Origin: Escherichia coli | Lineage (GTDB): Bacteria; Pseudomonadota; Gammaproteobacteria; Enterobacterales; Enterobacteriaceae | Length of the DNA: 64,000 nt | Strand: one strand, 5' to 3' | Assembly: GCF_017348835.2 (NCBI RefSeq) | Contig: NZ_CP071375.1 | In this document: in pieces, positions 28,180-55,574 of the stretch | How positions within the stretch are numbered: the stretch's first letter is position 1 | Layout: each line of letters begins with the position of its first letter | Notes under the pieces: model-generated | Told to the model about the DNA's origin: nothing | The model's database searches: none | What the model saw: the letters and a program-made list of their open reading frames with translations, nothing else | Translations under genes and position numbers: made by a program

Positions 28180-28256
28180 GGAGCGGTAGTTCAGTCGGTT
28201 AGAATACCTGCCTGTCACGCAGGGGGTCGCGGGTTCGAGTCCCGTCCGTTCCGCCA
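28180..28256 (+). tRNA. aspV: tRNA-Asp (GTC)
   Basis: Identical in sequence to the tRNA-Asp at 19965-20041. Confidence 0.95.
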
Positions 28257-29434: not shown

Positions 29435-29444
29435 TTAATTATCC

Positions 29445-30473
29445 TCAGTGCGCCAGGTAGTGTTCTGGTTCGAAAATCATGCCCGTCACCGGGTTGTCGT
29501 GCATGGCTTTACCCGCCCATGCGGTCCAACCCAGTTGGTACGGACCACCGGTAACAGCCGGAGGGGCGGCGTGGGGCTTTAGCTGTAGCTCAATTTCCCA
29601 GCAGTATTCAAAACCACTAAAGGCGCGGACCAGTTCGGTCAGGACAGGCAGGTTATTGCCGCCAGGCAGAAAACGTCGGTAATCCTCCAGCGTCAGCGGG
29701 CCGATAACCAGCCGGAACTTATACTGCATGTCCGGCACGGCCTGGCCGATAAGTGCACCATTGCCAATAACGGAAGAGGGGGCAGGCATCCCCAGCCGGG
29801 TTATCTCATCGTCCGCCACGGTTATCCAGTGCAGCACATACTCTTGTATCCGGAAAGATACACCGAAATAGTGCGCCAGCGTGGTGGCCAGACCGTCCGG
29901 ATTGCGGGACTCACGCACCAGATGGGCCGATGCCGCCAGACGAGCGTGATCCGGCAACGGGCTGTCGGCACTCTCCCGCAAATCCTGCCCGCTGAGGCTG
30001 GCGACATAAAAGGCAAAGCGGTCATGTTGCGGTTTATCCAGACCGCCCCCGGCGGACTGGGCGCTGCGCCATGCCTGGTAAAACTGCGTCAGCCAGCGGT
30101 GATGAAAAAGATCAGAAAAACGGGTTAGCGTCGGGTCTCTTCGGCTTTCAGTCCGGTTGCGCGCCAGTTCGCTGTAGTGCAGCGGCAGTGGACCGTTCGG
30201 CCCCCACAGCCCGAGACTGTACAAACTGATGTGCAAGCGCTCTTCCTGCCAGCTCACACTGGCGATTTCCCGTGGCGCAAAGGTCAGCGCGGGCGTTTGT
30301 CCGAGGCGAAATTTTTCTATCCGTGGTTGCCAGGTGTTGCCCGCCGGAACGCGACACAACTGCACATCAACGCGGCGCATCAGGTTCAGAAAACCGTAAC
30401 GCCAGGGGGTTTCCTGCGCCTGAGTGAAATCGTTGCTCATACGCTTCCCCGCTGTCCCGCCCTGACAGGCCAA
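29445..30473 (-). CDS. tssG: T6SS baseplate protein TssG
   Basis: 342 aa ORF immediately downstream of tssF with overlap; size and position typical of TssG. Confidence 0.55.
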   Translation of the reverse strand: MACQGGTAGKRMSNDFTQAQETPWRYGFLNLMRRVDVQLCRVPAGNTWQPRIEKFRLGQTPALTFAPREIASVSWQEERLHISLYSLGLWGPNGPLPLHYSELARNRTESRRDPTLTRFSDLFHHRWLTQFYQAWRSAQSAGGGLDKPQHDRFAFYVASLSGQDLRESADSPLPDHARLAASAHLVRESRNPDGLATTLAHYFGVSFRIQEYVLHWITVADDEITRLGMPAPSSVIGNGALIGQAVPDMQYKFRLVIGPLTLEDYRRFLPGGNNLPVLTELVRAFSGFEYCWEIELQLKPHAAPPAVTGGPYQLGWTAWAGKAMHDNPVTGMIFEPEHYLAH

Positions 30474-32320
30474 GTCATAATTTTACCGCGCTGCATGCTG
30501 TGCAGCGTCATCTGCGAGAAGGTATTAATGGAAACATGGCGGGCGATATAGTGTTCCAGCACCAGGCCGAACAGATACGGACTGATGCCGGAAAAACCTT
30601 CTTCATCCACCGTCAGTTCACAACTGACGCCACGCCCATAGGCCAGTAGTCCGGAACCGGGCAGACGGCGGGTGACCGGGGTCGTTTTACAACCAATCAG
30701 GCTGCGCACCTGGCGCGATTGCGGACTGTCATGAGCAGGAATAAACAGGTTCAGCAGATCTCGCAACGCCTGGCCGCCGGTACGGTGATCCAGATCGGCC
30801 AGCGGCAGATAATTAAAAGATAACTGGCGGATCAACCGCCATGCCATCTCACGTTCAGCCAGCGGGGGCTGCGGCGAGCGTGGCGGGCGGATAAGCCCTA
30901 CGCCCGCCACCGGGATGGCCGCATCCACGGTTAGATCGTCCCGGCCATTGCGGGCAATAAGACAGGGCAGATCGCGGTTAGTGACCATGGCCGTGATGGT
31001 GATGTGGCGCAGATTTTCCGGGTACGGCGCTTCATACTGGTCAACCAGCGACAGGAACACTTCCGAGCCCGTATAGGGGGTACGGGTGCCGTAACGGCGG
31101 GCGTTTTCTGATAAGCGGCGGGGCTCCCGGTGCAGGGAAAAATAACGTCCGTGATTGCCTTCATCATTATTGCGGGTGTGGTAGAGCGGGCGAAAGGCCA
31201 TCTTCCGTGTGGTGTCGGTTTCCAGCCCTTCCACTTCCTGGACCGAGAACACCTCATAATCCAGCGGATGGGTTCTGTCCACCACCAGATGCTGTTCCGT
31301 CGTGCTGTGCGTGACATCGATCCGGGCGGTGACGCGGGGAAACAGGTTGATAACCGGGGTACAGAACAGGCTGAACTGTGCCGCATTTGTCTGGTGGATC
31401 AGCCAGTCCGGCGGCAGGCGGTTCAGCAGGATAACAATCTCCGCCACGCCACCGTCAATTTTCTGTAATCCGGCAGACAGGCCTGTCGGGGTGAAAAAAT
31501 AGAAGCGTTCCGGACAGGCAAAATATTCATGCAGCAGGTTATGACCGTGAAACACGTTCCACGCCAGCGGCAGCAGCCCCTGATCCGGCTCCAGGCCTTC
31601 GTACATAACGGGCTGTTGCAGATTCACATCCAGCGCGCCGTCAAAATGTCCCGGAATGCCAGCCAGGGTCGCGATGGCGCTGGTATGTAGAAGTTCTAAC
31701 AGGTGTGAGGCCGTACGCTCCTCGCCGCAGAGATAAAACGGCAGCCTATCCAGTCCTGCAAGCTGACTGAACGTTAGTTCACCAAAGGTGCGCAGGGTAA
31801 TACGCAGCGCCCCGGCGACGTGAATGTTGGCCGGCAGGTAGCGATGCAGGGCAGGCATATCCGGTGGCGCGGCGGTCAGTCGCGCCTCTTCGATGGCGAG
31901 CGGCCACAGCGTTACATCCTGGCTGCTGCGAAACTGGCAGGCAGTGCTTTCGCCTTCCGGAATGGCGGAGAAAAAGGCCGTGTCGCGCGGGACGGTAAAT
32001 CCTTTCGCCAGATCGCCTTCTTCCGTATCGGGATGCAACTGCGCCACGCTCATTGAGGGCGTGGGTGTGACGTAATTGGGGCTGACCACTTCCAGCAGGC
32101 GCTGGGTGAAACGGGGGAATTCAGCGTCAATTTTTAGCTGCGTGCGGGCGGTCAGGAAGCTGAAGGCCTCGACCATTCGCTCTACATACGGATCGGCAAT
32201 ATCCGTTCCCTGCATGCCCAGCCGGGCGGCGACTTTGGGATGACGGGCGGCAAATTCGGCTCCCGTTTCCCGCAGATAGCTTAGTTCGCGGTTGTAGTAT
32301 TCCAGTAGCCGTGGATCCAT
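30437..32320 (-). CDS. tssF: T6SS baseplate protein TssF
   Basis: 627 aa; N-terminus [36 protein letters not shown] matches the TssF (ImpG/VasA) N-terminal signature as recalled. Confidence 0.75.
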
Positions 32321-32425
32321 CGGTCTCTCTCTGAATTAAAAAAACGTAATGCGGCTCTGCTCCATATCCAGCGCGCTACGTACGCGGGTTCAGCCGTAAC
32401 CGATGTATCTGGTGCCGCCGAGGAG

Positions 32426-34591
32426 ATGGCAGAACAGGCAGCGGCGGACCTGTTTGGTGCGTTGCCGGAACCGTCAGGTCTGGTTAAAGCCGCAGTAGCT
32501 GCTGCGCAGGCTGCCGCTGCAGCAGCAGGGATCCCGGATATGGCTGGTGCAGTTCAGGATGCGGCGGCGTCGATTGCTGCCGGTGGACCGGGGGCGCATA
32601 ACGTCACAGTAAGTGGTAGTGCGGTGCCGCCGCAGCTGCTTTTGTTTGCAGGCATGAATGGTTCGGAAGGGCTTGGAAACCTGTTTTCCTACACAGTACA
32701 GCTTAAAACCCCGGATACCCTGAACCTCGGATATGTCTCCCCCGCAGCCAACCTGCCGCTCAAGCCGATGGTGGGCAAAGACCTGTGCGTCAGTATCGAA
32801 CTGGACGGCGGCGGCAAACGGCATATCAGCGGGCTGGTGACAGCGGCGCGGGTGGTGGGCTATGAGGGCCGCTCGGTAACGTATGAATTACGCCTTGAGC
32901 CGTGGCTGAAACTGCTGACCCATACCAGCGACTACAAAGCGTTCCAGAATAAAACCGTGGTGGATATTCTCGATGAAGTACTGGATGAATATTCCTTTCC
33001 GGTGGAAAAGCGGCTGGTGGAAAATTATCCACCCCGCGCCTGGCAGGTGCAGTATGGTGAAACCGACTTCGATTTCATCCAGCGCCTGATGCAGGAATGG
33101 GGGATTTACTGGTGGTTTGAGCACAGCGAGAACAGCCACACGCTGGTGCTGGCGGATGCCATCAATGGTCATAAAGCGTGCCCTGACTCGCCGCTGGTGG
33201 AGTGGCACCAGGAAGGGCTGAAACTGGACAAGGAATTTATCCACACCATTACGGCCAGTGAGAGGCTGCGTACTGGAAAGTGGGTGATGGACGATTTTGA
33301 TTTTATGAAGCCTCGTTCGCTGCTTAAAAGTACCGTGGCTAGTCCGCGTGATACCGGTCATGCTGAATACGAGCATTATGAATGGCCTGGTGATTACTTC
33401 ACTACGGGCGAAGGCGAGATGCTGACGCGCATTCGTATGGAAGCGCAGCGCAGCCCCGGCAGCCGGGCACATGGGGCAGGTCATATCCGCACCCTCATGA
33501 CGGGTTACACCTTTACGCTGATGAATCATCCAACGGCAGAGGTCAACCAGGAATACCTACTGGTACAGACCACGCTGTTTTTACGGGATAATGCGCAGCA
33601 CAGCGGTCAGGAGCAGCATTTTACCTATGTCACCACGTTTGAACTGCACCCCACCAGCGAAGTTTACCGCCCACAGCGAACCCTAAGCAAACCCCACACC
33701 AAAGGCCCGCAGAGCGCCATCGTCACCGGCCCGGCAGGGCAGGAAATCTGGACGGATAAATATGGCCGGGTGAAGGTGCAGTTTGGCTGGGACCGTTACC
33801 TGTACGATGCGGAACAGCCGTACACGCCGGTGGCCGCCATCACGGGGCGCGGAGAGAGCCGGAAAATCTGGTATTACCACACGGACCTGACGGGCACGGT
33901 ACAGGAGGTGACCGCGCCGGACGGGACGCTGGTGTGGGCGGGCTATCAGGCGGGATTTGGTGAAAACCGGGGCGACATCAGCAACAGCGGGGCGTACTTT
34001 GAGCAGCCGCTGCGGCTGCCGGGGCAGTATTATGATGAAGAGACGGGGCTGCACTATAATCTGTTCAGATATTATGCGCCGGAGTGCGGGAGGTTTATCA
34101 GTCAGGATCCGATTTCGATCCGTGGGGGGCTGAATCTTTACCGGTATGCGCCTAATCCGCTGAGATGGATTGATCCGCTTGGATTAGACTGGAATTATCA
34201 TTTAACAGATAGTGATGGTAAGGTTTATTATCATGGACGTGCAAGTGATAATGCGTCAATGGAAGATGTTGCCCGTCGTCACAGCAATACAACAGGAGCT
34301 GATAAGGCAAGATTTGGAGAAACAGATACCATGACACGAATAACTGAGCCGGGTACGCCAAAATTAACAGCACAAGGTGTGGAAGGTATTGCCATAGGTG
34401 ATAATACTATCGGGCGAAGAGCTGATAACGGTAATAGGGGTCGGGGTAATAATATTCGGGGTGTTAATCCCAATGCAACCAATGCTACTGAAAAACTAAA
34501 TGCGGGTAAAGAATTTTTAAATGGACGAATACCAAGTGAAATGACTGGTGAAACATTGACAGGTAAGGAGTATTTTGAATCAAAATGTTAA
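32426..34591 (+). CDS. Chimeric protein: VgrG N-terminal (gp27-like) region fused in frame to an Rhs C-terminal core segment and a C-terminal toxin domain
   Basis: VgrG-like up to KVQFGWDR, then [21 protein letters not shown]...[27 protein letters not shown], which is nearly identical to 38200-38586 in the downstream Rhs; then an AT-rich unique tail. Confidence 0.7.
33795..34185 (+). repeat. Rhs 3' core segment, copy inside the VgrG chimera
   Basis: Near-identical nucleotide sequence to the Rhs core 3' ends at 38200-38586, 40930-41319 and 43520-43907. Confidence 0.8.
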
Positions 34592-35463
34592 AATTAACCG
34601 ATGTAAATAAAAATGCATTAAGAATACTTAAAAAATATAACGTGCTGGCAGAAGGTGACATAATAAGAGGTCATCCATTAAGTGAGCGGGATTTGAAATA
34701 TGTTGAGGCGCATTGTATTACAACTGAAGAACGAGCCTTTTTAAATGAAAAAGGTTTGGGGTTCGGATTTATTTCTGTGACTCATGATGAAGCATTAAGA
34801 GATTCGTTTACATATTTTAAATCTTCTAATAAAAATGATGTGACAGCTTCTTTTCTGGTGAGCCTGAGTAGTGCCAGATTAGACTACAGAAGTGGATTGT
34901 CTGCATTTGCAATTATGCAAACAATGCCGATGCATGGCTTTGAACCAAATCAGGCTTCTTTTTGTAAAGTATGTTCCGCAGAAAAATATAAAAAGCATTT
35001 TGATCTAACCAGCTTAAATCAGACTCGTTTCTTTAGTGGTTCTCTAGCAGTCTTTAAAACTCCTTATGAAATTTCTTTTTTTCTGGAGCAACAATCAAAA
35101 TTGGAAGTCGTTCAGCCAACCGAAAAAGATTTCTCTATCTTTAATGCGATTTTGAAAATAATTGTTGACGCAGAATCTGGCGAAAAACTGACATCAATAA
35201 TTAAAAAAATTAGAGCGATTGATGGCTTCAGGATAACTACAGATCAGTGTCGATGTCTTCTGGAAACGCTGGGATTTTGTGGGATTCTGGAAACGAAGGA
35301 ACACAAAGGGTATCTGACTTACTTTACTAATCCTGGACTGGCTCCGAGTAAATCTCATAGTTCTAACTGGGCCTATCCGGTTGATTTCTGGACCGGAGGG
35401 GATGGAATAAATCGCGAAGCGTTAAAATTCTGGTTTGGTGAATATAAAGAAATTGTTATCTGA
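34585..35463 (+). CDS. Putative immunity protein for the chimera's C-terminal toxin
   Basis: 292 aa AT-rich ORF; start overlaps the toxin stop (ATGTTAA), which suggests translational coupling. Confidence 0.45.
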
Positions 35464-35557
35464 TTAATTATTTTATAAATTTTTAATCGAGGGACGGATG
35501 GAAATCAATGCCGGATCCCCACCAGTACTAACAGGCGAAAATCCGGGAGAACTGATC

Positions 35558-35887
35558 TTACGGTTGAATAAGATCGTCAATAAACACCGCACCGTCAACG
35601 GTACGCAACCAGCGTGGCGCTTTCAGTTTTGCCGCAAAGAACCAGACCAGTTCACAAAGCAGCCCCGTCAGGGGTTGTTCCATTTTAGATCCCTGCGCCT
35701 GTTCCGTCAGGAGCTGGAGTAATACCTCGCAATATTCACACAATTGCTCAGGATCCAGGTCAAAGTGCGGAAATGAGGCAGGCAGGTCGTCGAGTGTCAG
35801 GCTGTCTACCAGATGGGGTGGAATAGGATCGTTCAGCGTGGGAGACAGAATGGCGATACAGGCGCGAAGTCGTCCGAACAACGCCAT
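35558..35887 (-). CDS. Hypothetical protein, possibly the distal part of a frameshifted gene that starts near 36021
   Basis: 109 aa ORF; upstream on the same strand a 36-codon ORF with RBS ggaggt ends in a stop just before it. Confidence 0.2.
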   Translation of the reverse strand: MALFGRLRACIAILSPTLNDPIPPHLVDSLTLDDLPASFPHFDLDPEQLCEYCEVLLQLLTEQAQGSKMEQPLTGLLCELVWFFAAKLKAPRWLRTVDGAVFIDDLIQP

Positions 35888-36097
35888 TTTCAGCGCCGGA
35901 TCGTGACACTCTATAAGGGTTCAGCGAAGCGATCGCAGTGATCGGCCAGGTCTGTGAAATCGGTGGCAGAACTGAAAGGAATGGACAATAAATCATAATC
36001 AGGGGTGAGGACTGTAGCCATAAGGCAACCTCCGATAAGTAGGCGTTAAAACCACCACCGAAGAGACCAATCTTACGGGTGGTGGAACCGGGCGGAG

Positions 36098-38932
36098 TTG
36101 GTCTTACCGGCCTTATCGGATACCGGCGCATCTTTCGATGCCACCGCCCGGCCCACCATTGAGGTACAGCCGTGCGTGCAACACAAAAAAGACGCTGGCG
36201 CGTCATGTGTCGCCGATAAGACTTATTCAGGAGACCAATCCCGACGCCTGATTTTGCAGACGCGGCATAACGATACAACGATCGCGAAATGGCGACAAAC
36301 CCCTTTCCCGGAAGGCGGCTCGCAAAATCAGAAATATCACAGGGAAAGACAGAGCGCCGCAACGCGGCGGGATGTACCGCTTCACGTACAACGAAAACCA
36401 TTTTCCGGTAGCGGTGGAACTCCCCGGCGAACGCAGGTAACGCTGGAATACGACACCCTGAGCCGGGTGGTGAAAGAGACGGACCCGGCAGGCCGGGTGA
36501 CACAGACGCAGTGGAACGGCAGTTTTGCTGAAATCACGCGCCGGGCACTGGATGACGACCACGTATGGAAGGCGGATTACAACGAACACGGCCAGGTGAT
36601 ACGGGAGACGGACCCGGAAGGGCGCGTCACGCGCTACGGGTATGATGAACAGGGGCTGGCGGTCAGCCGCACGGATGCGCGGGGCGGCGAGGCTGCGCTG
36701 GCGCATGATGCGCGCGGCCAGCTGAGGCGTTACACCGACTGTTCAGGGCGTGCCACGGGTTATGAATACGATGAAGACGGCAACCTGACGGTGGTGACGG
36801 ACGCGGAGGGGAAAACGGTACGTATCCGCTATAACCGTCTGGGACTGCCGGAGACGGTAAATCATCCCGGTAAACAGCAGGACCGTTACACGTGGAACGC
36901 GCTGGGGTTACTGAGCAGCCACCGTCGCATCACAGGCAGTGTGCAGTCCTGGCAGTATACGCCGCGCGGTCTGCTGGCGCTCCACGTAGATGAAGAGAAA
37001 CGGGAGACGCGCTGGCATTATACCGCGGAGGGATGGATTGCCAGTCTGAGCAACGGCAACGGAGCGCTTTACCGGTTCAGTCACGATGCGGACGGACGGC
37101 TGACGGGAGAACAGCGCCCGGACGGTCTGATACGGATGTTTGTGCTGAATGCGGGCGGGTATCCGGTCATCATCCAGACGCAGGGTACAGAAGGCGGGGG
37201 GCGCAATGAACAGCAGGAGCGTGACGCGCTGGGCCGCCTGCTGCGCAGTGACACGCAGCACAGTACACGGACCTTCAGCTACAACCGTCTTGACCAGATA
37301 ACGGAAGTGACGCTCACCCCGACGAAAGAAGGGGAACGGCTGCACCACATGCAGGCGGACACGGTGCGCTTTGCGTATGACCGCAGCGGCTGGCTGACGG
37401 CAGAGCACAGCGTGCACGGCAGCATAAAATATCAGCGTGACGCGCTGGGCAATCCCACCGATATCACGTTGCCGGACGGGCAGCATCTCAGTCATCTTTA
37501 CTACGGCAGCGGACATCTGCTCCAGACGGCACTGGACGGTATCACGGTCAGCGAATATGAGCGTGACAGTCTGCACCGTCAGGTGATGCGCACGCAGGGG
37601 AAACTGGCGACGTTCAGCGGCTACAACGCCGACAACCGGTTAAGCTGGCAGCGCAGTCTGCCAGGTGGCAGCCAGAATCCACAGCAGACCGGTAACCCCC
37701 CGGCGCAGAACGACAGCGTGACGGCGCGGGACTATATCTGGAATGCGGACGGTGAGGTCGGCGGCATCAATGACAAACTGCGCGGTTGCCTGGTGTTCAG
37801 CTATGACCGCAGCGGCTGGCTGACCAGTCGCACGGGTCAGATGTACGACCATGACCATTATTATTACGACAAAGCGGGCAACCTGCTGACGGACGAGTAT
37901 CAGAGCGCGGTGATGGATAACCGCCTGCCGGGCTACGGGCGTGACCGTTACCGCTATAACGAATGGGGCGAACTGACAGAGCGCAGGGACCAGCAACTGG
38001 AGTGGAATGCGCAGGGCCAGTTAACGCGGGTCATCAGCAGCAACAGCGAGACGCGGTATCAGTATGATGCGCTGGGCAGGCGTATCAGCAAGGCGACCAG
38101 CAATCTCCATACCGACCGGGGAGAACGAAGCCGGACAACGTTTGTGTGGGAAGGGGTCCGGCTGTTGCAGGAGACAACGTGGCAGGGAAAGCGGACGTAC
38201 CTGTACGACGCGGAACAGCCGTACACGCCGGTGGCCGCCATCACCGGGCGCGGAGAGAGCCGGAAAATCTGGTATTACCACACGGACCTGACGGGCACGG
38301 TACAGGAGGTGACCGCGGCGGACGGGACGCTGGTGTGGGCGGGCTATCAGGCGGGGTTCGGAGAAAACCGGGGCGACATCAGCAACAGCGGGGCGTATTT
38401 TGAACAGCCGCTGCGGCTGCCGGGGCAGTATTATGATGAAGAGACGGGGCTGCACTATAATCTGTTCAGATATTATGCGCCGGAGTGCGGGAGGTTCGTA
38501 AGCCAGGATCCGATTTCGATCCGGGGTGGTCTGAATCTTTACCGGTATGCGCCGAATCCGATTACTTGGATCGATCCGTGGGGATTGGCAAAGGGGGATT
38601 ATGGTAAAATGCCTACGTTCCCTGGTTGGCAGAAACATCATAATATTCCACAAAATATGGCTACTCATTCGGCAATTGTTGACTCTGGATTTGATATACA
38701 TAATAGTCGTAACATTACAACCTTGCCAAAAACTGGAAGTATAGATACTGCCAGAACAGTGCACAGTGGAATGCACACAGGAGATTATGACAGGATGGTA
38801 AAAAATGCTTTAGATCAAATTGACTCGTTGAATGCTTCCCCTGAGATCAAAAAAATGCATATAGAAGCCTTATCTGATGATATTGGCAATAAATTGAGAA
38901 CAAAACAAATTACGTTAAATGCTGCATGTTGA
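36098..38932 (+). CDS. Rhs / YD-repeat protein, 5'-truncated and frameshifted near 36425, with a C-terminal toxin domain after DPWGL
   Basis: YD repeats (RYxYD, YxYDxxG); frame switch at gaacgcaggtaacgctg; core ends ...NPITWIDPWGL, followed by an AT-rich tip. Confidence 0.7.
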   Translation: MVLPALSDTGASFDATARPTIEVQPCVQHKKDAGASCVADKTYSGDQSRRLILQTRHNDTTIAKWRQTPFPEGGSQNQKYHRERQSAATRRDVPLHVQRKPFSGSGGTPRRTQVTLEYDTLSRVVKETDPAGRVTQTQWNGSFAEITRRALDDDHVWKADYNEHGQVIRETDPEGRVTRYGYDEQGLAVSRTDARGGEAALAHDARGQLRRYTDCSGRATGYEYDEDGNLTVVTDAEGKTVRIRYNRLGLPETVNHPGKQQDRYTWNALGLLSSHRRITGSVQSWQYTPRGLLALHVDEEKRETRWHYTAEGWIASLSNGNGALYRFSHDADGRLTGEQRPDGLIRMFVLNAGGYPVIIQTQGTEGGGRNEQQERDALGRLLRSDTQHSTRTFSYNRLDQITEVTLTPTKEGERLHHMQADTVRFAYDRSGWLTAEHSVHGSIKYQRDALGNPTDITLPDGQHLSHLYYGSGHLLQTALDGITVSEYERDSLHRQVMRTQGKLATFSGYNADNRLSWQRSLPGGSQNPQQTGNPPAQNDSVTARDYIWNADGEVGGINDKLRGCLVFSYDRSGWLTSRTGQMYDHDHYYYDKAGNLLTDEYQSAVMDNRLPGYGRDRYRYNEWGELTERRDQQLEWNAQGQLTRVISSNSETRYQYDALGRRISKATSNLHTDRGERSRTTFVWEGVRLLQETTWQGKRTYLYDAEQPYTPVAAITGRGESRKIWYYHTDLTGTVQEVTAADGTLVWAGYQAGFGENRGDISNSGAYFEQPLRLPGQYYDEETGLHYNLFRYYAPECGRFVSQDPISIRGGLNLYRYAPNPITWIDPWGLAKGDYGKMPTFPGWQKHHNIPQNMATHSAIVDSGFDIHNSRNITTLPKTGSIDTARTVHSGMHTGDYDRMVKNALDQIDSLNASPEIKKMHIEALSDDIGNKLRTKQITLNAAC
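36848..38586 (+). repeat. Rhs conserved core repeat, copy 1
   Basis: About 1.7 kb, near-identical to 39583-41319; 3' part near-identical to 42465-43907. Confidence 0.85.
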
Positions 38933-38947
38933 ATAACGAGGGAATAT

Positions 38948-39538
38948 ATGATTTATTTTTTATCTGATAAAAAAAATACCTTCGGGTTGTTGCATTATGA
39001 TCATAAAACTTCGATCGACTACACAGTATTTAATGAGGGGGTTAGCATAACAGGAATAGACATTAATATTAAATATACATCAAACAATAAAAATGATTTA
39101 AAACGGCTCGAAAAGTGTAACATTATAGAAACGACAGGTCCGACATTGATAAATAATAAGATTAGACATGTTTTTGAAAAATATGCAAGCAATGCGGTTG
39201 AATTTTTTGATGTAGACATTAACGATGATATAGATTTATCAAGGAAGTTTTGTGCGATTAATTTATTATGGGTCTTACCATGTTGTGATATGGAAAAGAG
39301 TGAATTTACATTAAGTAATTTCGATCTTGCCAATCCTAACTATATGTTTATGTATAAAGTTCTAAAAAATGATATTAATAGAGAGGTGGATATATTTCGG
39401 TGTAAGGAGCAGCATACTGAAATTGTTGTAAGTGAAGGAGTTAAGCAAGCATGTATGGACGCGGGAATTAAAGGATTGCGTTTTTGTACGGCTATTGATT
39501 TAACTCCAAAAAATAGATCTGAGTGTGTATTTATTTAA
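38948..39538 (+). CDS. Putative immunity protein for the toxin tip of the Rhs at 36098-38932
   Basis: 196 aa AT-rich ORF immediately after the toxin. Confidence 0.45.
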   Translation: MIYFLSDKKNTFGLLHYDHKTSIDYTVFNEGVSITGIDINIKYTSNNKNDLKRLEKCNIIETTGPTLINNKIRHVFEKYASNAVEFFDVDINDDIDLSRKFCAINLLWVLPCCDMEKSEFTLSNFDLANPNYMFMYKVLKNDINREVDIFRCKEQHTEIVVSEGVKQACMDAGIKGLRFCTAIDLTPKNRSECVFI

Positions 39539-39547
39539 TATATATGT

Positions 39548-41656
39548 ATCACGCGGTGCGGGTATGACGAACAGTTCCTGCCGGAGACGGTCAGCCACCC
39601 CGGTAAACAGCAGGACCGTTACACCTGGAACGCACTGGGGTTACTGAGCAGCCATCGTCGCATCACGGGCAGTGTGCAGTCCTGGCAGTATACGCCGCGC
39701 GGGATGCTGGCGCGCCATACGGATGAAGAGAAACGGGAGACGCGCTGGCAGTACACCCCGGAAGGGCTGGTTGCCAGTCTGAGCAACGGCAACGGAGCGC
39801 TTTACCGGTTCAGTCACGATGCGGACGGACGGCTGACGGGAGAACAGCGCCCGGACGGTCTGATACGGATGTTTGTGCTGAATGCGGGCGGGTATCCGGT
39901 CATCATCCAGACGCAGGGTACAGAAGGCGGGGGGCGCAATGAACAGCAGGAGCGTGACGCGCTGGGCCGCCTGCTGCGCAGTGACACGCAGCACAGTACA
40001 CGGACCTTCAGCTACAACCGTCTTGACCAGATAACGGAAGTGACGCTCACCCCCACGGAAGAAGGGGAACGGCTGCACCACATGCAGGCGGACACGGTGC
40101 GCTTTGCGTATGACCGCAGCGGCTGGCTGACGGCAGAGCACAGCGTGCACGGCAGCATAAAATATCAGCGTGACGCGCTGGGCAATCCCACCGACATCAC
40201 GTTACCGAACGGGCAGCACCTCAGCCATCTTTACTACGGCAGCGGGCATCTGCTCCAGACGGCACTGGACGGTATCACGGTCAGTGAATATGAGCGTGAC
40301 AGTCTGCACCGTCAGGTGATGCGCACGCAGGGGAAACTGGCGACGTTCAGCGGCTACAACGCCGACAACCGGTTAAGCTGGCAGCGCAGCCTGCCAGGTG
40401 GCAGCCAGAACCCACAGCAGGCCGGTAACCCCCCGGCGCAGAAAGACAGCGTGACAGCGCGGGATTATATCTGGAACGCAGACGGTGAAGTCGGCGGCAT
40501 CAATGACAAACTGCGCGGTTGCCTGGTGTTCAGCTATGACCGCAGCGGCTGGCTGACCAGTCGCACGGGTCAGATGTACGACCATGACCATTATTATTAC
40601 GACAAAGCGGGCAATCTGCAGACGGATGAGCATCAGGGAGCGGTGCCGGATAACCGCCTGCCGGGCTACGGGCGTGACCGCTACCGCTATAACGAATGGG
40701 GCGAACTGACAGAGCGCAGGGACCAGCAACTGGAGTGGAATACGCAGGGCCAGTTAACGCGGGTCATCAGCAGCAACAGCGAGACGCGGTATCAGTATGA
40801 TGCGCTGGGCAGGCGTATCAGCAAGGCGACCAGCAATCTCCATACCGACCGGGGAGAACGAAGCCGGACAACGTTTGTGTGGGAAGGGTTCCGGCTGTTG
40901 CAGGAGACAACGTGGCAGGGAAAGCGGACATACCTGTACGACGCGGAACAGCCGTACACGCCGGTGGCGGCCATCACGGGGCGCGGAGAGAGCCAGAAAA
41001 TCTGGTATTACCACACGGACCTGACGGGCACGGTACACGAGGTAACCGCGCCGGACGGGACGCTGGTGTGGGCGGGCTACCAGGCGGGATTTGGCGAAAA
41101 CCGGGGCGACATCAGCAACAGCGGGGCGTACTTTGAGCAGCCGCTGCGACTGCCGGGGCAGTACTTTGACGAAGAAACAGGGCTGCATTACAATCTGTTC
41201 AGGTATTATGCGCCGGAGTGCGGGAGGTTCGTAAGCCAGGATCCGATAGGGTTGCTTGGTGGGCTGAACTTATATGCTTATGCGCCTAATCCGCTGTCAT
41301 GGATCGATCCGTTAGGTTTGACTCCATGTGCAAATGGGGGGAATGCTAAAAAACATGGTGGCACAGGACATAATAATTTTATTGATAATCTTATTGCGGA
41401 TGCTCGCAGTCAGGGTGCTACAAATATCAGGAAAAACCAATGGCAGGTAGATGTTAATGGAAATGTTGTTGGTAAAAATAGACCGGATGTTCAATTTGAT
41501 TTAAATGGTAAACATTATAATATTGAGGTTGATACAACAATAAAAGGCAGCGTTGGTCACCAAAATACTATACCTACACTTGATCCCAACTCAAGAAATA
41601 CATTTTGGCTAATTGATGACTTAGGGAATATTTTAAATGGCCACTCAACCATCTGA
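39548..41656 (+). pseudogene. Orphan 5'-truncated Rhs fragment with a distinct C-terminal toxin domain
   Basis: Rhs homology starts abruptly right after the upstream immunity gene; ORF track gives 39674..41656; core ends DPLGL, then a unique tip. Confidence 0.65.
39583..41319 (+). repeat. Rhs conserved core repeat, copy 2
   Basis: Near-identical to 36848-38586. Confidence 0.85.
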
Positions 41657-42221
41657 TAATAAAAAATTAGTGTTTGCTGTAGTGAACAGTGATTTTAATG
41701 ATATAGAAAGAACTATCCATAATGGATTGAACTGGCCGAGTGAACCAATAAGTAGTCGAAAACTTATTGAGGAAATACACTTGACTATTCAACGTGGTGG
41801 GGTCTTGCCGTCCGAGGGGGTTTTCTATTATCCGTGTATAAATGACAGCAAATTAATTTTTCTGTCTAATTTATCTGATGGATGGGACTCTTTACTTTAT
41901 TGCCTGTCAAAACAGAATAAATCTAGCTATCTACTGTTTAGGTTATTGATGGGGGAATACCCTCTGATGGAAATGAGTTTTATAGAGTCAGGGAAAACAA
42001 TACGTTTAATTAGAGTGATAAAAGAAAATAAATGGATTTTTTATGAGGTCGGGGAACCGTTATGGTTTGAAGAAAAGGAAAACTATTCAAAAAGAAGAAT
42101 CGCAGATAGAATTACTTATGATCTCTTACTCTCCTATTCACGGAAAAATGGCATTGACTTTGATTCCCCCGCATTTTTTAAAACGGAAAAAGAATCACTA
42201 TGGTTGAATGAAATACGATAG
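41637..42221 (+). CDS. Putative immunity protein for the second orphan toxin
   Basis: 194 aa AT-rich ORF overlapping the toxin 3' end. Confidence 0.4.
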   Translation: MATQPSDNKKLVFAVVNSDFNDIERTIHNGLNWPSEPISSRKLIEEIHLTIQRGGVLPSEGVFYYPCINDSKLIFLSNLSDGWDSLLYCLSKQNKSSYLLFRLLMGEYPLMEMSFIESGKTIRLIRVIKENKWIFYEVGEPLWFEEKENYSKRRIADRITYDLLLSYSRKNGIDFDSPAFFKTEKESLWLNEIR

Positions 42222-42232
42222 TTTATTTAAAT

Positions 42233-42271
42233 AAAAAGCCGGAAAAGAAATTAAACTTTCCCGGCTTTTTT
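42233..42271. terminator. Bidirectional hairpin terminator
   Basis: aaaaagccggaaaag...ctttcccggctttttt; homologous to the hairpin at 44613-44650. Confidence 0.5.
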
Positions 42272-42276
42272 ATTAT

Positions 42277-42465
42277 TTAACTCTCGTTCAGCACACTAAA
42301 CATCCCGTCCCGCATCCCCTTAACTGCCTGTTTAACCTGATAAAGCTCCCTGCGCAGTTCCTGTACTTCGTTGTTATCCGCAAGCAGGATCAGACATCCC
42401 TCCGAGATCTTCACGGTAACGCCCGTGCCGATCTCAAATCCCGCTTCTCTCAGCCATTTGGCGCT
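42277..42465 (-). pseudogene. SymE-like toxin gene, 5'-truncated by the adjoining Rhs fragment
   Basis: C-terminal 60 aa AKWLREAGFEIGTGVTVKISEGCLILLADNN... resemble SymE; the upstream part of the ORF is antisense Rhs sequence. Confidence 0.5.
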
Positions 42466-43907
42466 GAATGCGGGCGGGTTTCCGGTCATCATCCAGACGC
42501 AGGGCACAGAGGGCGGGGTGCGTAATGAGCGGCAGGAGCGTGATGCGCTGGGCCGCCTGCTGCGCAGTGACACGCAGCACAGTACACGGACCTTCAGCTA
42601 CAACCGTCTTGACCAGATAACGGAAGTGACGCTCACCCCCACGGAAGAAGGGGAACGGCTGCACCACATGCAGGCGGACACGGTGCGCTTTGCGTATGAC
42701 CGCAGCGGCTGGCTGACGGCAGAGCACAGCGTGCACGGCAGCATAAAATATCAGCGTGACGCGCTGGGCAATCCCACCGACATCACGTTACCGAACGGGC
42801 AGCACCTCAGCCATCTTTACTACGGCAGCGGGCATCTGCTCCAGACGGCACTGGACGGTATCACGGTCAGTGAATATGAGCGTGACAGTCTGCACCGTCA
42901 GGTGATGCGCACGCAGGGGAAACTGGCGACGTTCAGCGGCTACAACGCCGACAACCGGTTAAGCTGGCAGCGCAGCCTGCCAGGTGGCAGCCAGAACCCA
43001 CAGCAGGCCGGTAACCCCCCGGCGCAGAAAGACAGCGTGACAGCGCGGGATTATATCTGGAACGCAGACGGTGAAGTCGGCGGCATCAATGACAAACTGC
43101 GCGGTTGCCTGGTGTTCAGCTATGACCGCAGCGGCTGGCTGACCAGTCGCACGGGTCAGATGTACGACCATGACCATTATTATTACGACAAAGCGGGCAA
43201 TCTGCAGACGGATGAGCATCAGGGAGCGGTGCCGGATAACCGCCTGCCGGGCTACGGGCGTGACCGCTACCGCTATAACGAATGGGGCGAACTGACAGAG
43301 CGCAGGGACCAGCAACTGGAGTGGAATACGCAGGGCCAGTTAACGCGGGTCATCAGCAGCAACAGCGAGACGCGGTATCAGTATGATGCGCTGGGCAGGC
43401 GTATCAGCAAGGCGACCAGCAATCTCCATACCGACCGGGGAGAACGAAGCCGGACAACGTTTGTGTGGGAAGGGTTCCGGCTGTTGCAGGAGACAACGTG
43501 GCAGGGAAAGCGGACATACCTGTACGACGCGGAACAGCCGTACACGCCGGTGGCGGCCATCACGGGGCGCGGAGAGAGCCAGAAAATCTGGTATTACCAC
43601 ACGGACCTGACGGGCACGGTACACGAGGTAACCGCGCCGGACGGGACGCTGGTGTGGGCGGGCTACCAGGCGGGATTTGGTGAAAACCGGGGCGACATCA
43701 GCAACAGCGGGGCGTACTTTGAGCAGCCGCTGCGGCTGCCGGGGCAGTATTATGATGAAGATACGGGGCTGCACTATAATCTGTTCAGATATTATGCGCC
43801 GGAGTGCGGGCGGTTTATCAGTCAGGACCCGATAGGGCTGGCGGGAGGAATAAACCTATATGCTTATGCGCCTAATCCGCTAAGTTATATTGATCCTCTT
43901 GGGCTTT
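42465..43907 (+). repeat. Rhs conserved core repeat, copy 3
   Basis: Near-identical to 37146-38586 and 39880-41319. Confidence 0.85.
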
Positions 43908-44335
43908 GTAAATTAAGGGGAAGCGATGGGCGCTACAGAAGTGCACAGAATATTCAGGAAGAAATAGGCGGCCTACCCAATTTTGCAGGAAAAACTCCAG
44001 GAGAAATACGACAAACTTTGCGTAATCGAGGTTATTCGTCGGTACAAGCGTATAGTGGAGGAGAGGTCTGGACAAAAGCATTACCTGACGGAAATACTGT
44101 TGCAGTGAGGCTTGATCCGGCAAATCCTCGCTCACCTTCACATTATGCTGATGCTGTACCTCATGCTCATATTGAAACAGTTCCAACATCCAGTGTTTCT
44201 AATGGGAATTATCGCCCGCGAGACGTGACTGGCAGGCATACTGCCACTGGTGGGGTTTCTGATCGAGGAACAAATCCGAATCATAACGCTGATGTTTACA
44301 TTCCAATGTCTCCGGGACGATTCCCATATGATTAA
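42465..44335 (+). pseudogene. Orphan 5'-truncated Rhs fragment with a third distinct C-terminal toxin domain
   Basis: Rhs homology starts at gctgaatgcgggcggg (matches 37139 in copy 1); core ends DPLGL at 43907, followed by a unique tip. Confidence 0.65.
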
Positions 44336-44346
44336 TGTGAGGTTTT

Positions 44347-44610
44347 ATGAATATCCGAAATCAATATAATGAAGCCTTAAATAAATTAGAAGTTGATGTT
44401 AATGATGGTTTGAGAGATTTAATAAACATATATTGTGTGGCTATTGATTCTTTTGAAAATGATATCGTTGACTCGATTGCTTTATACGTGATTGATATGG
44501 GAAATAAAGATACTTGTCGATATCTACAAGAAGTCTTATCAGAGAATGAAGATCCTTATTTAGTAAAAGAATTTAATGCATGGATAAAAGAAATTAAGAA
44601 AAAATATTAA
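44347..44610 (+). CDS. Putative immunity protein for the third orphan toxin
   Basis: 87 aa AT-rich acidic ORF immediately after the toxin. Confidence 0.4.
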   Translation: MNIRNQYNEALNKLEVDVNDGLRDLINIYCVAIDSFENDIVDSIALYVIDMGNKDTCRYLQEVLSENEDPYLVKEFNAWIKEIKKKY

Positions 44611-44612
44611 AA

Positions 44613-44650
44613 TAAAAGCCGGGAAGGTTATAAAATCTTCCCGGCTTTTT
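44613..44650. terminator. Bidirectional hairpin terminator
   Basis: aaaagccgggaagg...cttcccggcttttt. Confidence 0.5.
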
Positions 44651-44654
44651 ATTT

Positions 44655-44939
44655 TTAATTCTCGTTCAGTACACTAAACATCCCGTCCCGCATCCCCTTA
44701 ACCGCCTGTTTAACCTGATAAAGTTCCCTGCGCAGTTCCTGTACTTCGTTGTTATCGGCAAGCAGGATCAGGCAGCCTTCCGAGATCTTCACAGTAACGC
44801 CCGTGCCGATCGAAAATTCCGCTTCTCTCAGCCATTTGGCGCTGATTTTGATCACCGGCGTGTCGCTGCTGTTGGGCAGATATCCTACGGTACAACGGCG
44901 TTGTGTTTTGGAAATGGTGACTTCTGGCGTAATATCATG
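44655..44939 (-). CDS. SymE-like toxin homolog; no canonical ATG at the 5' end of the open frame
   Basis: The open frame reads ...RRCTVGYLPNSSDTPVIKISAKWLREAEFSIGTGVTVKISEGCLILLA..., resembling K-12 SymE (LTVSY...ITLKGQWLEAAGF...GTAVDVKVMEGCIVLTA) as recalled; ORF track starts at 44855. Confidence 0.5.
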   Translation of the reverse strand, partial: HDITPEVTISKTQRRCTVGYLPNSSDTPVIKISAKWLREAEFSIGTGVTVKISEGCLILLADNNEVQELRRELYQVKQAVKGMRDGMFSVLNEN

Positions 44940-45001
44940 TTTAAGTTAGGGGCTTTCGTAGTCATACCCCGACTCTCCCCGGCCCTAAACACAACCCCCA
45001 C

Positions 45002-49708: not shown

Positions 49709-49850
<142 letters not shown>

Positions 49851-55572: not shown

Positions 55573-55574
55573 TA

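What the first reader, a model, noticed from the sequence alone, without database searches (positions are those of the whole stretch)
36848..43907. Three near-identical Rhs core repeats in direct orientation, each ending in a different tip
About 1.4-1.7 kb of GC-rich core is repeated almost exactly at 36848-38586, 39583-41319 and 42465-43907, with a fourth partial copy in the VgrG chimera at 33795-34185. The unique parts are the AT-rich tips and their downstream ORFs. Direct repeats of this length are substrates for RecA-dependent deletion, duplication and tip displacement, so the locus is likely structurally unstable. They will also collapse in short-read assemblies.
Basis: seen in the sequence. 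Interest (0 to 1): 0.65.

Follow-up and report, generated by a model that had tools for sequence, protein, structure and literature searches.

The report
Orphan Rhs toxin array, dead T6SS
This is a classic array of leftover Rhs toxin gene fragments, each with its own toxin tip and immunity gene, in an E. coli secretion island that has lost its machinery; the repeats are real and still recombine, but this kind of locus is well known.

Summary
Three direct copies of GC-rich Rhs core lie at 36845-38587, 39578-41320 and 42463-43903. They are 94.4-97.7% identical, and copies 2 and 3 share a 1,136-bp block with no differences. A 389-bp fourth copy lies at 33797-34185. Each copy ends at the DPxGL motif and is followed by a different AT-rich tip and a small ORF.

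The window is E. coli PE164, at the island between tRNA-Asp (aspV) and yafV. All three copies are 5'-truncated orphans, starting at rhs nt 1529, 2011 and 2310. The locus has no intact rhs, no EagR/DcrB chaperone and no PAAR. The "VgrG chimera" is the stump of the main rhs, left by a 4.6-kb in-frame deletion. A second deletion of 21.5 kb removed tssE through tagF, so these toxins cannot be delivered from this locus.

The instability idea is supported by comparison with the near-clonal strain F2_81. That strain differs by a 2,160-bp deletion joined at a 23-bp intra-core repeat, and 33 of 37 SNPs between the two strains fall inside the cores as gene-conversion patches. However, the orphan junctions are shared with distant strains, so the scaffold is old.

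The locus fits the published C-terminal displacement and orphan model. It is ordinary, a new member of a known kind. One side lead is an integrase-bearing element in other strains that carries tip 2.

The parts
28180..28256 (+). tRNA-Asp (aspV), the left boundary of the T6SS/rhs island
   Evidence: RefSeq annotation of PE164 (window = L001 + 25999). The same position is occupied in the intact island of strain 06-00048.
28388..32320 (-). tssA (ImpA family), tssG and tssF, the only T6SS core genes left in the island
   Evidence: Annotation. In the intact reference L005, tssE follows tssF.
32387..32388 (.). Junction of a 21,489-bp deletion running from tssE through tagF into vgrG nt 1-97
   Evidence: Window 32100-32387 matches L005 11773-12060, and window 32388 onward matches L005 33550 onward. 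The intact gene order is shown.
32387..33799 (+). vgrG remnant (nt 97-1509 of a 2,214-nt gene), forming the 5' part of the 721-aa chimeric ORF 32426-34591
   Evidence: blastn to L003, L004 and L007. TIGR03361 covers aa 67-458, which is profile positions 7-391 of 513. PGAP marks it as a pseudogene.
33797..34186 (+). Core copy 0, the last 390 nt of the former main rhs (rhs nt 3364-3752), joined in frame to vgrG through a 3-nt microhomology (TAC)
   Evidence: TIGR03696 Rhs_assc_core matches aa 520-587. This junction is present in only 2 of 5,426 E. coli genomes.
34187..34591 (+). Tip 0 (134 aa after DPLGL), family unknown
   Evidence: No Pfam hit and no PDB hit. Found in only 2 of 5,426 genomes.
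34585..35463 (+). I0, a 292-aa ORF in the immunity position for tip 0
   Evidence: ORF and annotation. No family hit. The immunity role is inferred from position only.
35511..36363 (.). Conserved spacer upstream of orphan 1, containing a frameshifted minus-strand ORF (35558-36021)
   Evidence: Contiguous with orphan 1 in PapRG-06-5 and AR_0077 as well.
36364..38587 (+). Core copy 1 (orphan 1), covering rhs nt 1529-3743, 5'-truncated and frameshifted near its start
   Evidence: PGAP notes 'frameshifted; missing N-terminus and C-terminus'. YD repeats and Rhs_assc_core are detected.
38588..38932 (+). Tip 1, an AHH (HNH/EndoVII-superfamily) nuclease domain
   Evidence: Pfam PF14412, i-E 2.9e-14. 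PGAP calls it an 'AHH domain-containing protein'.
38948..39538 (+). I1, an Imm11-family immunity protein
   Evidence: Pfam PF07791, 2.2e-11, and PGAP 'imm11 family protein'.
39578..41320 (+). Core copy 2 (orphan 2), starting at rhs nt 2011 directly after the imm11 region
41321..41656 (+). Tip 2 (111 aa), family unknown
   Evidence: No Pfam or PDB hit. In strain A20 the same tip sits on a full-length 1,526-aa Rhs.
41637..42221 (+). I2, a 194-aa ORF in the immunity position for tip 2
   Evidence: It travels with tip 2 in A20 and A36.
42222..42467 (-). symE' segment, a symE-family gene truncated at its 5' end where core copy 3 begins
   Evidence: Pfam SymE_toxin, NCBIfam PRK13605 and the repeat with 44580-44845. 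The same junction occurs in PapRG-06-5.
42463..43906 (+). Core copy 3 (orphan 3), starting at rhs nt 2310
43907..44335 (+). Tip 3 (142 aa), family unknown
   Evidence: No Pfam or PDB hit. Present in 24 of 5,426 genomes, for example at the ansP-pptA locus of E2348/69.
44347..44610 (+). I3, an 87-aa ORF in the immunity position for tip 3
   Evidence: WP_032280303.1, shared with F2_81 and 14EC033.
44613..44941 (-). Terminal symE-like segment, the right end of the island before yafV (45002-45772)
   Evidence: with annotation.
39959..41094 (+). 1,136-bp block of copy 2 that is identical to copy 3 (42545-43680), probably a recent gene-conversion tract
   Evidence: F2_81 carries a different, naturally occurring haplotype at 22 sites here.
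40535..40557 (+). 23-bp repeat TATGACCGCAGCGGCTGGCTGAC (also at 42695-42717), the crossover site of the 2,160-bp deletion in F2_81
38456..38461 (+). TATAAT -10-like hexamer inside the HYN codons of the hyperconserved core. Equivalents lie at 34055-34060 and 43775-43780, and as TACAAT at 41189-41194. A predicted start about 89 nt upstream of the PxxxxDPxGL coding sequence follows.
   Evidence: The position matches the internal P2 transcription start reported for Salmonella rhs (PMC7043789). Function was not tested.

Best explanation
The region is the variable end of the E. coli T6SS island that lies between tRNA-Asp (aspV) and yafV, in strain PE164. It is an array of orphan rhs modules. Each module consists of a 5'-truncated piece of the conserved Rhs core, a distinct C-terminal toxin tip and a cognate immunity ORF.

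The arrays were built over time by C-terminal displacement. In that process, incoming units of core end, tip and immunity gene recombine into the resident rhs and push the previous tip downstream together with a piece of core. In this lineage two illegitimate deletions then removed most of the main rhs, the 3' end of vgrG, the EagR/DcrB chaperone gene and about 21.5 kb of T6SS structural genes. As a result, none of the four toxin tips can be loaded or fired from this locus.

Two things remain. The first is a set of immunity genes and possibly internally transcribed toxin/immunity pairs. That function is inferred, from the conserved -10 element about 97 nt upstream of the DPxGL coding sequence. 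The second is three long direct repeats that keep exchanging sequence with each other by gene conversion and occasionally delete units.

Shown here: the repeat structure, the truncation points, the two deletions, the conserved junctions and the recombination differences from the sister strain. Inferred: the order of events, RecA involvement, immunity function and internal expression.
For: The window is E. coli PE164 at 100% identity, and PGAP marks all three cores and vgrG as partial pseudogenes.

Mapping onto intact loci (vgrG, DcrB-related gene, a 4.1-kb rhs, an immunity gene, symE and yafV) places copies 1, 2 and 3 at rhs nt 1529, 2011 and 2310, and copy 0 at nt 3364. The exact deletion junctions are, and the intact T6SS gene order is.

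Each copy carries the Rhs_assc_core domain and ends in DP[LW]GL followed by an unrelated tip. Tip 1 is an AHH nuclease paired with Imm11.

Tips move independently of cores. Tip 2 with I2 and symE sits on a full-length Rhs with its own vgrG and DcrB-related gene at another locus in A20. Tip 3 with I3 and symE sits at the ansP-pptA locus in E2348/69 and RM14723.

The spacer/copy 1 and symE'/copy 3 junctions are shared with PapRG-06-5, which carries different tips.

Recombination between copies is shown by the comparison with F2_81: a 2,160-bp deletion at the 23-bp repeat, 33 of 37 SNPs inside the cores, and conversion polarity established with outgroup strains.

The published models match: Jackson 2009 (PMC2935791), Poole 2011 (PMC3150448), Koskiniemi 2014 (PMC3967940) and Starsta 2020 (PMC7043789).
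Against: The canonical array has a full-length rhs at its head, and here only a 390-nt stump remains, so the locus is a derivative and not a working example.

Three of the four tips and three of the four putative immunity ORFs match no Pfam, NCBIfam or PDB family. Their toxin and immunity roles therefore rest on position alone.

I did not check the rest of the PE164 genome for another T6SS, or for an intact rhs of the same core class, that could capture these tips by gene conversion. The 301-bp junction query had one extra place per genome beyond those in this locus.

The clustered SNPs and the perfect 1,136-bp block could be inflated by short-read polishing of repeats.

The only deletion seen used 23 bp of identity, which is at or below the usual threshold for efficient RecA-mediated exchange (my own knowledge, not tested).
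Confidence: 0.85

Rival explanations
1. The array, at least units 2 and 3, was built mainly by an integrase-bearing mobile element rather than by RecA-type exchange. The element would insert site-specifically near the 3' end of the rhs core and bring about 70 nt of core end, a new tip, its immunity gene and symE. Under this reading the window's symE segments are scars of such elements.
For: In A20, tip 2, I2 and symE form the left end of a 7,093-bp insert that also carries an HTH gene, a CHC2 primase gene and a XerC-type recombinase gene (526 bits against a cut-off of 371). The insert lies between two copies of the 14-mer GACCCGATAGGGCT, and an older tip with its ORF lies to the right. The same right-end junction, GGATCGTCCCGATGA|CCCGATAGGGCT, recurs three times in EC77 and once in Entomohabitans teleogrylli, each time followed by a different tip. 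The window has the 14-mer exactly at the ends of copies 2 and 3 and nowhere else. The symE flank occurs up to 8 times per genome.
Against: The window contains no integrase, no primase and no element right end. Its orphans retain 1.4-2.2 kb of core, not the roughly 80 bp that such an integration leaves behind, so long-homology or illegitimate events are still needed. No exact empty site was found in 5,426 genomes. The Entomohabitans copy has no recombinase within 5 kb. Excision was not tested.
Confidence: 0.35
2. The repeats are an assembly or polishing artefact, or a recent tandem duplication of one rhs unit whose tips later diverged.
For: Perfect 1,136-bp identity between copies 2 and 3 is what mis-polishing or a very recent duplication would produce. 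Only two genomes hold the full arrangement.
Against: Every junction is reproduced in an independent assembly. The three copies start at different core positions. The tips are non-homologous, AT-rich and found on other rhs genes elsewhere. Copy 1 differs from copies 2 and 3 by about 6%.
Confidence: 0.03
3. The locus is still a working weapon. The in-frame VgrG-Rhs core-tip 0 chimera would act as a specialised VgrG effector, and the orphan tips would be deployed through a T6SS encoded elsewhere in the genome.
For: The 721-aa ORF is uninterrupted and keeps the Rhs_assc_core domain with DPLGL and a tip followed by I0. The chimera is conserved at 100% in F2_81.
Against: The VgrG part lacks its first 32 codons with the native start and roughly the last third of the protein (profile positions 392-513 are unmatched). 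Only 130 aa of a core of about 1,250 aa remain, so no Rhs shell can form. There is no EagR and no PAAR. The cognate T6SS genes are deleted. PGAP calls vgrG a pseudogene. The junction occurs in only 2 of 5,426 genomes. Similar VgrG'/Rhs' stumps occur as annotated pseudogenes at the ansP-pptA locus.
Confidence: 0.05

Closest known systems
Rhs main/orphan arrays formed by C-terminal displacement (Jackson et al. 2009, PMC2935791; Serratia marcescens SMA1610-1616 and the E. coli clade IV locus)
   Same: [quoted passage not shown] Each repeat carries an unrelated AT-rich tip and a downstream small ORF. The fragments lack proper starts and some are frameshifted (one search compared).
   Different: Here the full-length rhs at the head of the array has itself been reduced to a 390-nt stump fused to a vgrG remnant, and the T6SS genes are deleted.
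Salmonella Typhimurium SPI-6 rhs main plus orphan (Koskiniemi et al. 2014, PMC3967940; Starsta et al. 2020, PMC7043789)
   Same: Both contain orphan rhs-CT/rhsI modules that share core homology usable for recombination. In Salmonella that homology is 522 bp at 95%; here it is 1.4-1.7 kb at 94-98%. Both have a -10 element placed so that transcription would start about 89 nt upstream of the PxxxxDPxGL coding sequence.
   Different: Salmonella keeps an intact main rhs and T6SS, so recombination yields a deliverable toxin, whereas this locus cannot do that in cis. Promoter activity and type II toxin-antitoxin (TA)-like behaviour were not tested here.
Intact aspV-yafV T6SS islands of other E. coli strains (06-00048, 23S01245-7, PapRG-06-5, AR_0077)
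   Same: Same chromosomal site, same vgrG and rhs core class at 90-99% identity, and the same spacer/orphan and symE'/orphan junctions.
   Different: Those strains keep vgrG, the DcrB-related chaperone gene, a 4.1-kb rhs and, in 06-00048, the structural genes. They also carry other tips. Tips 0 and 1 occur in 2 of 5,426 genomes and tip 2 in 3 of 5,426.
Orphan immunity gene arrays left by effector displacement (Vibrio cholerae, PMC5361080)
   Same: Successive displacement leaves arrays of immunity genes that outlast the effectors they were acquired with (title and abstract).
   Different: That is a different effector family and mechanism. I used that paper only at the level of its abstract.

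Membership tests
Rhs / YD-repeat polymorphic toxin genes | YD repeats in the core | tested here: met
   TIGR01643 YD_repeat_2x matches copy 1 (6 stretches), copy 2 (2) and copy 3 (2).
Rhs / YD-repeat polymorphic toxin genes | RHS repeat-associated core domain ending in PxxxxDPxGL, followed by a variable tip | tested here: met
   TIGR03696 matches all four copies at 87-90 bits (cut-off 32.5). DPLGL or DPWGL is followed by four unrelated tips.
Rhs / YD-repeat polymorphic toxin genes | Full-length protein of about 1,400 aa with an N-terminal region and a complete shell | tested here: not met
   The copies start at rhs nt 1529, 2011, 2310 and 3364 of about 4,134. The NF041261 RHS_core scores are 92-200 bits against a cut-off of 2,000. 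PGAP notes 'missing N-terminus'.
Rhs main/orphan array (C-terminal displacement) | Direct, near-identical partial cores of differing length downstream of one another | tested here: met
Rhs main/orphan array (C-terminal displacement) | An intact main rhs at the 5' end of the array | tested here: not met
   Only the vgrG'-rhs' stump remains (33797-34186), left by a 4,556-bp deletion.
Rhs main/orphan array (C-terminal displacement) | The same tips found attached to full-length rhs genes elsewhere | tested here: met
   Tip 2 sits on a 1,526-aa Rhs in A20. For tips 0, 1 and 3, no full-length carrier was found in 5,426 genomes.
Rhs main/orphan array (C-terminal displacement) | GC-rich core against AT-rich tip and immunity segments | tested here: met
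   0.60-0.61 against 0.33-0.39.
Functional T6SS Rhs effector locus | Intact vgrG, an EagR/DcrB-family chaperone, and the T6SS core genes in cis | tested here: not met
   vgrG is truncated at both ends. No DcrB-related gene is present. The stretch from tssE to tagF is deleted. T6SS loci elsewhere in the genome were not examined.
Toxin-immunity pair | Recognisable toxin domain with an adjacent cognate immunity family | tested here: inconclusive
   The test is met for tip 1 (AHH PF14412 with Imm11 PF07791). Tips 0, 2 and 3 and I0, I2 and I3 have no family hits.
SymE/SymR type I toxin-antitoxin | Full-length SymE ORF with an antisense SymR RNA | tested here: inconclusive
   There are partial SymE_toxin hits only (model positions 23-52 of 54). 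PRK13605 scores 34 bits against a cut-off of 132. The copy at 42222-42467 is truncated by core copy 3. SymR was not searched for.
Integrase-borne rhs-tip element (seen in A20 and EC77; not a named family) | XerC-type recombinase, primase and the conserved right end GGATCGTCCCGATGA next to the 14-mer | tested here: not met
   All are absent from the window. Only the 14-mer is present, at 41240 and 43826, together with the cargo-like tip-immunity-symE segments.

The most novel reading that the evidence does not exclude
Tip acquisition in this E. coli rhs class may be driven at least partly by a family of 7-9-kb elements that encode a XerC-type tyrosine recombinase, a CHC2 primase, an HTH regulator and symE. 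These elements would integrate at a 14-bp site (GACCCGATAGGGCT, encoding DPIGL) about 70 nt upstream of the core/tip boundary. Like a phage restoring the 3' end of a tRNA gene, they would replace the end of rhs with their own core end, toxin tip and immunity gene. Under this reading the window's tip 2-I2-symE' and tip 3-I3-symE segments are decayed left ends of such elements. This would supply the 'circular intermediate' that Jackson et al. postulated but could not source. Steele et al. 2017 noted Rhs-associated integrases but left their role open. I found no description of this element in the searchable library, which is not proof that none exists.
Probability: 0.4. Interest if true: 0.6.

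Novelty: new member of a known kind. Interest (0 to 1): 0.3.

Why it matters
As found, it matters little beyond annotation. It is a well-resolved example of a known architecture. It shows that an rhs array can outlive both its main gene and its secretion system, and that its repeats go on converting and deleting between near-clonal isolates. In practice the ORFs at 36098-38932, 39674-41656 and 42371-44335 should be annotated as orphan fragments, not as effectors, and short-read typing of this locus is unreliable. Three of the four tips and their partner ORFs belong to no described family and are rare (2 to 24 of 5,426 genomes), so they are candidate new toxin/immunity pairs. The side lead could matter more: if confirmed, an integrase-borne tip carrier would give a concrete mechanism for how new Rhs toxins arrive.

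Tried and rejected
- **Tip and immunity families.** Pfam and NCBIfam scans of all tips and downstream ORFs recognised only AHH, Imm11 and SymE. PDB sequence searches with tips 0, 2 and 3 found nothing meaningful; the best was E=0.23 to a reductase.
- **Recent tandem duplication.** Rejected, because the truncation points differ, the tips are unrelated, and the junctions are shared with distant strains.
- **Assembly artefact.** Rejected for the architecture, because independent assemblies reproduce it. It is not excluded for individual SNP patches.
- **Working VgrG-Rhs effector.** Judged unlikely.
- **Empty site for the A20 element.** A synthetic core plus old-tip query found no genome covering at least 80% of it. 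The best was GF3-3 at 92.4%, running about 170 nt past the junction.
- **Element right end across species.** One scan of one-genome-per-species contigs for the right-end junction found a single hit, in Entomohabitans, with no recombinase within 5 kb.
- **Literature.** Searches for a described integrase-borne Rhs tip element found only a passing remark.
- **Not attempted.** I did not run the capped large protein-database searches or structure prediction on the tips, because the verdict on the repeats does not depend on them.

Full report

Yes. Self-blastn of the window finds three long direct repeats:

| Pair | Coordinates | Identity | Length |
|---|---|---|---|
| copy 1 / copy 2 | 36845-38587 / 39578-41320 | 94.55% | 1,744 nt |
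| copy 2 / copy 3 | 39877-41295 / 42463-43881 | 97.67% | 1,419 nt |
| copy 1 / copy 3 | 37144-38577 / 42463-43896 | 94.35% | 1,434 nt |

A 389-nt partial copy at 33797-34185 is 89.6-93.8% identical to the others. The repeat finder agrees.

The identity is mosaic. Copies 2 and 3 share a 1,136-bp block with no difference at all (39959-41094 = 42545-43680), while the longest perfect run between copies 1 and 2 is 283 bp. Cores have GC 0.60-0.61 and the tip plus downstream-ORF segments have 0.33-0.39. Each copy ends in DPLGL or DPWGL and is followed by an unrelated tip of 134, 114, 111 or 142 aa.

**2. What and where is it?**

The 14.5 kb around the finding is 100% identical to the chromosome of E. 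coli PE164, a pig isolate. The region lies between tRNA-Asp (aspV) and yafV-ivy-fadE. In other strains this site holds a complete T6SS island whose variable end reads vgrG, DcrB-related (EagR-type) gene, a 4.1-kb rhs, an immunity gene, symE and yafV.

Mapping the window onto those references shows that copy 1's rhs homology really begins at 36364, which is rhs nt 1529 of 4,134. Copy 2 begins at nt 2011, copy 3 at nt 2310, and the copy inside the "VgrG chimera" at nt 3364. So none of the repeats belongs to an intact rhs. PGAP likewise annotates all of them as partial pseudogenes, and copy 1 as frameshifted as well. NCBIfam detects YD repeats and the RHS-associated core domain in each long copy, but the full-length RHS_core model scores only 92-200 bits against a cut-off of 2,000.

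**3. Two deletions define this version of the locus.**

- At window 32387|32388, 21,489 bp of the intact island are missing, from inside tssE through tagJ, tagK, tssH, tssB, tssC, hcp, tssJKLM and tagF to vgrG nt 97 (gene order). Only tssA, tssG and tssF remain.
- At about 33797-33799, vgrG nt 1509 is joined in frame to rhs nt 3364 through a 3-nt microhomology (TAC). This removes 4,556 bp: the vgrG 3' third, the chaperone gene and the first 3,363 nt of the main rhs.

The 721-aa "chimera" ORF (32426-34591) is therefore the stump of the former main rhs with its tip 0 and downstream ORF I0. The junction occurs in only 2 of 5,426 complete E. coli genomes, PE164 and F2_81. Strain 14EC033 shows an independent decay of the same island through IS insertions. 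Similar vgrG'/rhs' stumps are annotated at the ansP-pptA locus of E2348/69 and RM14723. Such remnants are therefore commonplace.

**4. The modules.**

- Tip 1 is an AHH nuclease domain (Pfam PF14412, 2.9e-14), followed by an Imm11 protein (PF07791, 2.2e-11).
- Tips 0, 2 and 3 and ORFs I0, I2 and I3 match no Pfam, NCBIfam or PDB family. Their toxin and immunity roles are inferred from position.
- The tips are rare. Tip 0/I0 and tip 1/I1 occur in 2 of 5,426 genomes, tip 2/I2 in 3, and tip 3/I3 in 24.
- The tips are decoupled from this core. In strain A20, tip 2-I2-symE terminates a full-length 1,526-aa Rhs with its own vgrG and DcrB-related gene at another locus. Tip 3-I3-symE sits at the ansP-pptA locus in E2348/69 and RM14723.

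**5. How the array arose.**

The spacer/copy 1 junction (35511-36364 and onward) and the symE'/copy 3 junction (42234-42467 and onward) are colinear with PapRG-06-5, at 95.4% over 3,069 nt and 94.3% over 1,663 nt. That strain has an intact main rhs and different tips in those slots. AR_0077 shares the first junction. The scaffold of orphan slots is therefore old and shared, while the tips in it vary.

[quoted passage not shown] They explained it by C-terminal displacement (PMC2935791). Poole et al. showed that such arrays consist of orphan toxin/immunity modules (PMC3150448). Copy 2 begins immediately after the imm11 region, which fits a displaced former tip (tip 2) pushed downstream by the arrival of tip 1. 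That order of events is inference.

**6. Is the locus unstable?**

The closest relative, F2_81, is a pig isolate from Australia. It is colinear with window 29000-40557 at 99.68% and with 42695-49500 at 99.985%. The two segments overlap by 23 bp. The 23-mer TATGACCGCAGCGGCTGGCTGAC encodes YDRSGWLT and occurs twice per core, 426 bp apart. F2_81 joins the second occurrence in copy 2 (40535-40557) to the first occurrence in copy 3 (42695-42717). This deletes 2,160 bp, namely the end of copy 2, tip 2, I2, symE' and the start of copy 3. It leaves an in-frame hybrid core with a 142-codon internal duplication. Consistent with this, tip 2 is absent from F2_81.

Of the 37 substitutions in the first 11.5 kb, 33 lie inside the cores:

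- Ten lie at 37882-38009 in copy 1. There F2_81 carries the copy 2/3 state, while PE164 keeps the state of the orthologous orphan in PapRG-06-5. This points to conversion in the F2_81 lineage.
- Twenty-two lie at 40102-40492 in copy 2. There PE164 is identical to its own copy 3, while F2_81 carries a haplotype seen in other strains. This points to conversion in the PE164 lineage, which matches the 1,136-bp identical block.

So three recombination events separate two isolates that otherwise differ at about 5 sites in 15 kb.

- RecA dependence cannot be tested here.
- The one deletion seen used a 23-bp out-of-register repeat, not the long homology.
- Clustered SNPs in repeats are also what short-read polishing errors look like.
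- The deep conservation of the junctions shows that the array is not ephemeral.

Experimentally, 522 bp at 95% identity suffices for main/orphan exchange in Salmonella (PMC3967940).

**7. What can it still do?**

In cis, nothing can be delivered. There is no Rhs shell, PAAR, chaperone or intact VgrG, and no sheath, Hcp, ClpV or membrane complex.

All four core ends keep a -10-like hexamer inside the conserved HYN codons. It reads TATAAT at 34055, 38456 and 43775. At 41189 it reads TACAAT, with a TTGACG -35 element 17 nt upstream. A start about 7 nt downstream of the hexamer would lie about 89 nt upstream of the PxxxxDPxGL coding sequence. That is the position of the internal P2 start which in Salmonella drives TA-like expression of main and orphan Rhs-CT/RhsI pairs. 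The authors report the same promoter in E. coli (PMC7043789).

My best reading is that the surviving function is immunity to neighbours' toxins, possibly combined with selfish TA-like maintenance of the modules. This is inferred, not shown. I did not examine the rest of the PE164 genome for another T6SS or for an rhs of this class. The junction query did have one extra match per genome outside this locus.

**8. A side lead.**

The symE-bearing flank occurs in 190 of 5,426 genomes, up to 8 times per genome.

In A20, tip 2-I2-symE is the left end of a 7,093-bp insert that also carries an HTH gene, a CHC2 primase gene and a XerC-type recombinase gene (NF002331, 526 bits against a cut-off of 371). 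The insert lies between two copies of GACCCGATAGGGCT, and to its right come about 70 nt of core end, an older tip and its ORF. In EC77 the element is tandemly repeated (7.1 kb at 94%). Its right end, GTTAAAAAGTRTGACC...GGATCGTCCCGATGA|CCCGATAGGGCT, abuts three different tips. The same junction occurs in Entomohabitans teleogrylli.

This looks like site-specific integration that swaps the end of rhs. The window has the 14-mer only at the ends of copies 2 and 3. It has no recombinase and no right end, and its orphans keep kilobases of core. The element therefore cannot explain the three long repeats by itself. No exact empty site was found. Rhs-associated integrases have been noted before without a demonstrated role (PMC5727410). 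My literature searches found no description of this element.

**9. Verdict.**

- The feature is a decayed orphan rhs array of a well-described kind, with rare and mostly unclassified tips. It is a new member of a known kind.
- Interest is low to moderate at 0.3.
- The most novel reading that is not excluded is the integrase-borne tip carrier, with probability about 0.4.

Noticed in passing
window 32387-32388 (compare L005 12061-33549): A clean 21,489-bp deletion removes tssE, tagJ, tagK, tssH, tssB, tssC, hcp, tssJ, tssK, tssL, tssM, tagF and the first 97 nt of vgrG. It leaves only tssA, tssG and tssF next to aspV, so the island's T6SS is dead.
   Followed up: yes
window 33797-33799; also L009 5081-7021 and L014 8081-10021: The vgrG'-rhs' fusion is an in-frame illegitimate deletion with a 3-nt TAC microhomology. 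Comparable vgrG-partial/rhs-partial stumps are annotated at the ansP-pptA (rhsE-type) locus of E2348/69 and RM14723.
   Followed up: partly
window 42200-42467 and 44580-44941, minus strand: symE-family (type I toxin) sequences lie downstream of I2 and I3. The first is truncated at its 5' end exactly where core copy 3 starts. This flank accompanies rhs tip/immunity cassettes in 190 of 5,426 E. coli genomes, up to 8 copies per genome. SymR antisense RNA was not looked for.
   Followed up: partly
L008 6919-14012 (E. coli A20); L011 4298-11401 and 13136-20231 (EC77); L015 5152-5178 (Entomohabitans teleogrylli): An element of about 7 kb encodes symE, an HTH regulator, a CHC2 primase and a XerC-type recombinase. 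It carries an rhs tip with its immunity gene at its left end. It is bounded by the 14-mer GACCCGATAGGGCT and has a conserved right end, which recurs next to different tips. This is a possible site-specific tip-swapping element.
   Followed up: partly
window 35511-36363: The conserved spacer before orphan 1 contains a frameshifted minus-strand ORF (35558-36021). It is 90-96% identical in three other rhs arrays and about 76% identical to a gene next to 'ash family protein' genes in roughly 414 genomes, which suggests a remnant of a mobile element.
   Followed up: no
window 34055-34060, 38456-38461, 41189-41194, 43775-43780: The conserved HYN codons of the Rhs hyperconserved domain spell a consensus -10 hexamer (TATAAT, or TACAAT in copy 2). 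Its position matches the internal P2 promoter reported for Salmonella rhs.
   Followed up: partly
window 19965-20052 and 28180-28266: An 88-bp repeat at 96.6% identity corresponds to two tRNA-Asp genes. One is at the end of the rRNA operon (16S, tRNA-Ile, tRNA-Ala, 23S, 5S, tRNA-Asp) and the other is the aspV copy bordering the island. This is ordinary.
   Followed up: yes
L010 (E. coli 14EC033): The same island has decayed independently in this strain. IS2 truncates the clpV-type gene, tagJ has an internal stop, and an IS3-family element lies between rhs fragments. Yet tip 3/I3 is 100% identical to the window's.
   Followed up: partly
window about 53833-56302 and 57000-64000: Downstream of the island lie a lafU gene and a 5'-truncated flhA (a remnant of the lateral flagellar cluster), hicAB, dinB-yafP, truncated rtcB and prfH, an IS3-family element, and prophage tail-fibre genes (annotation).
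   Followed up: no
window 7024-7066 and 49712-49753: A 43-bp repeat at 95% identity turned up in the self-comparison. It was not examined.
   Followed up: no
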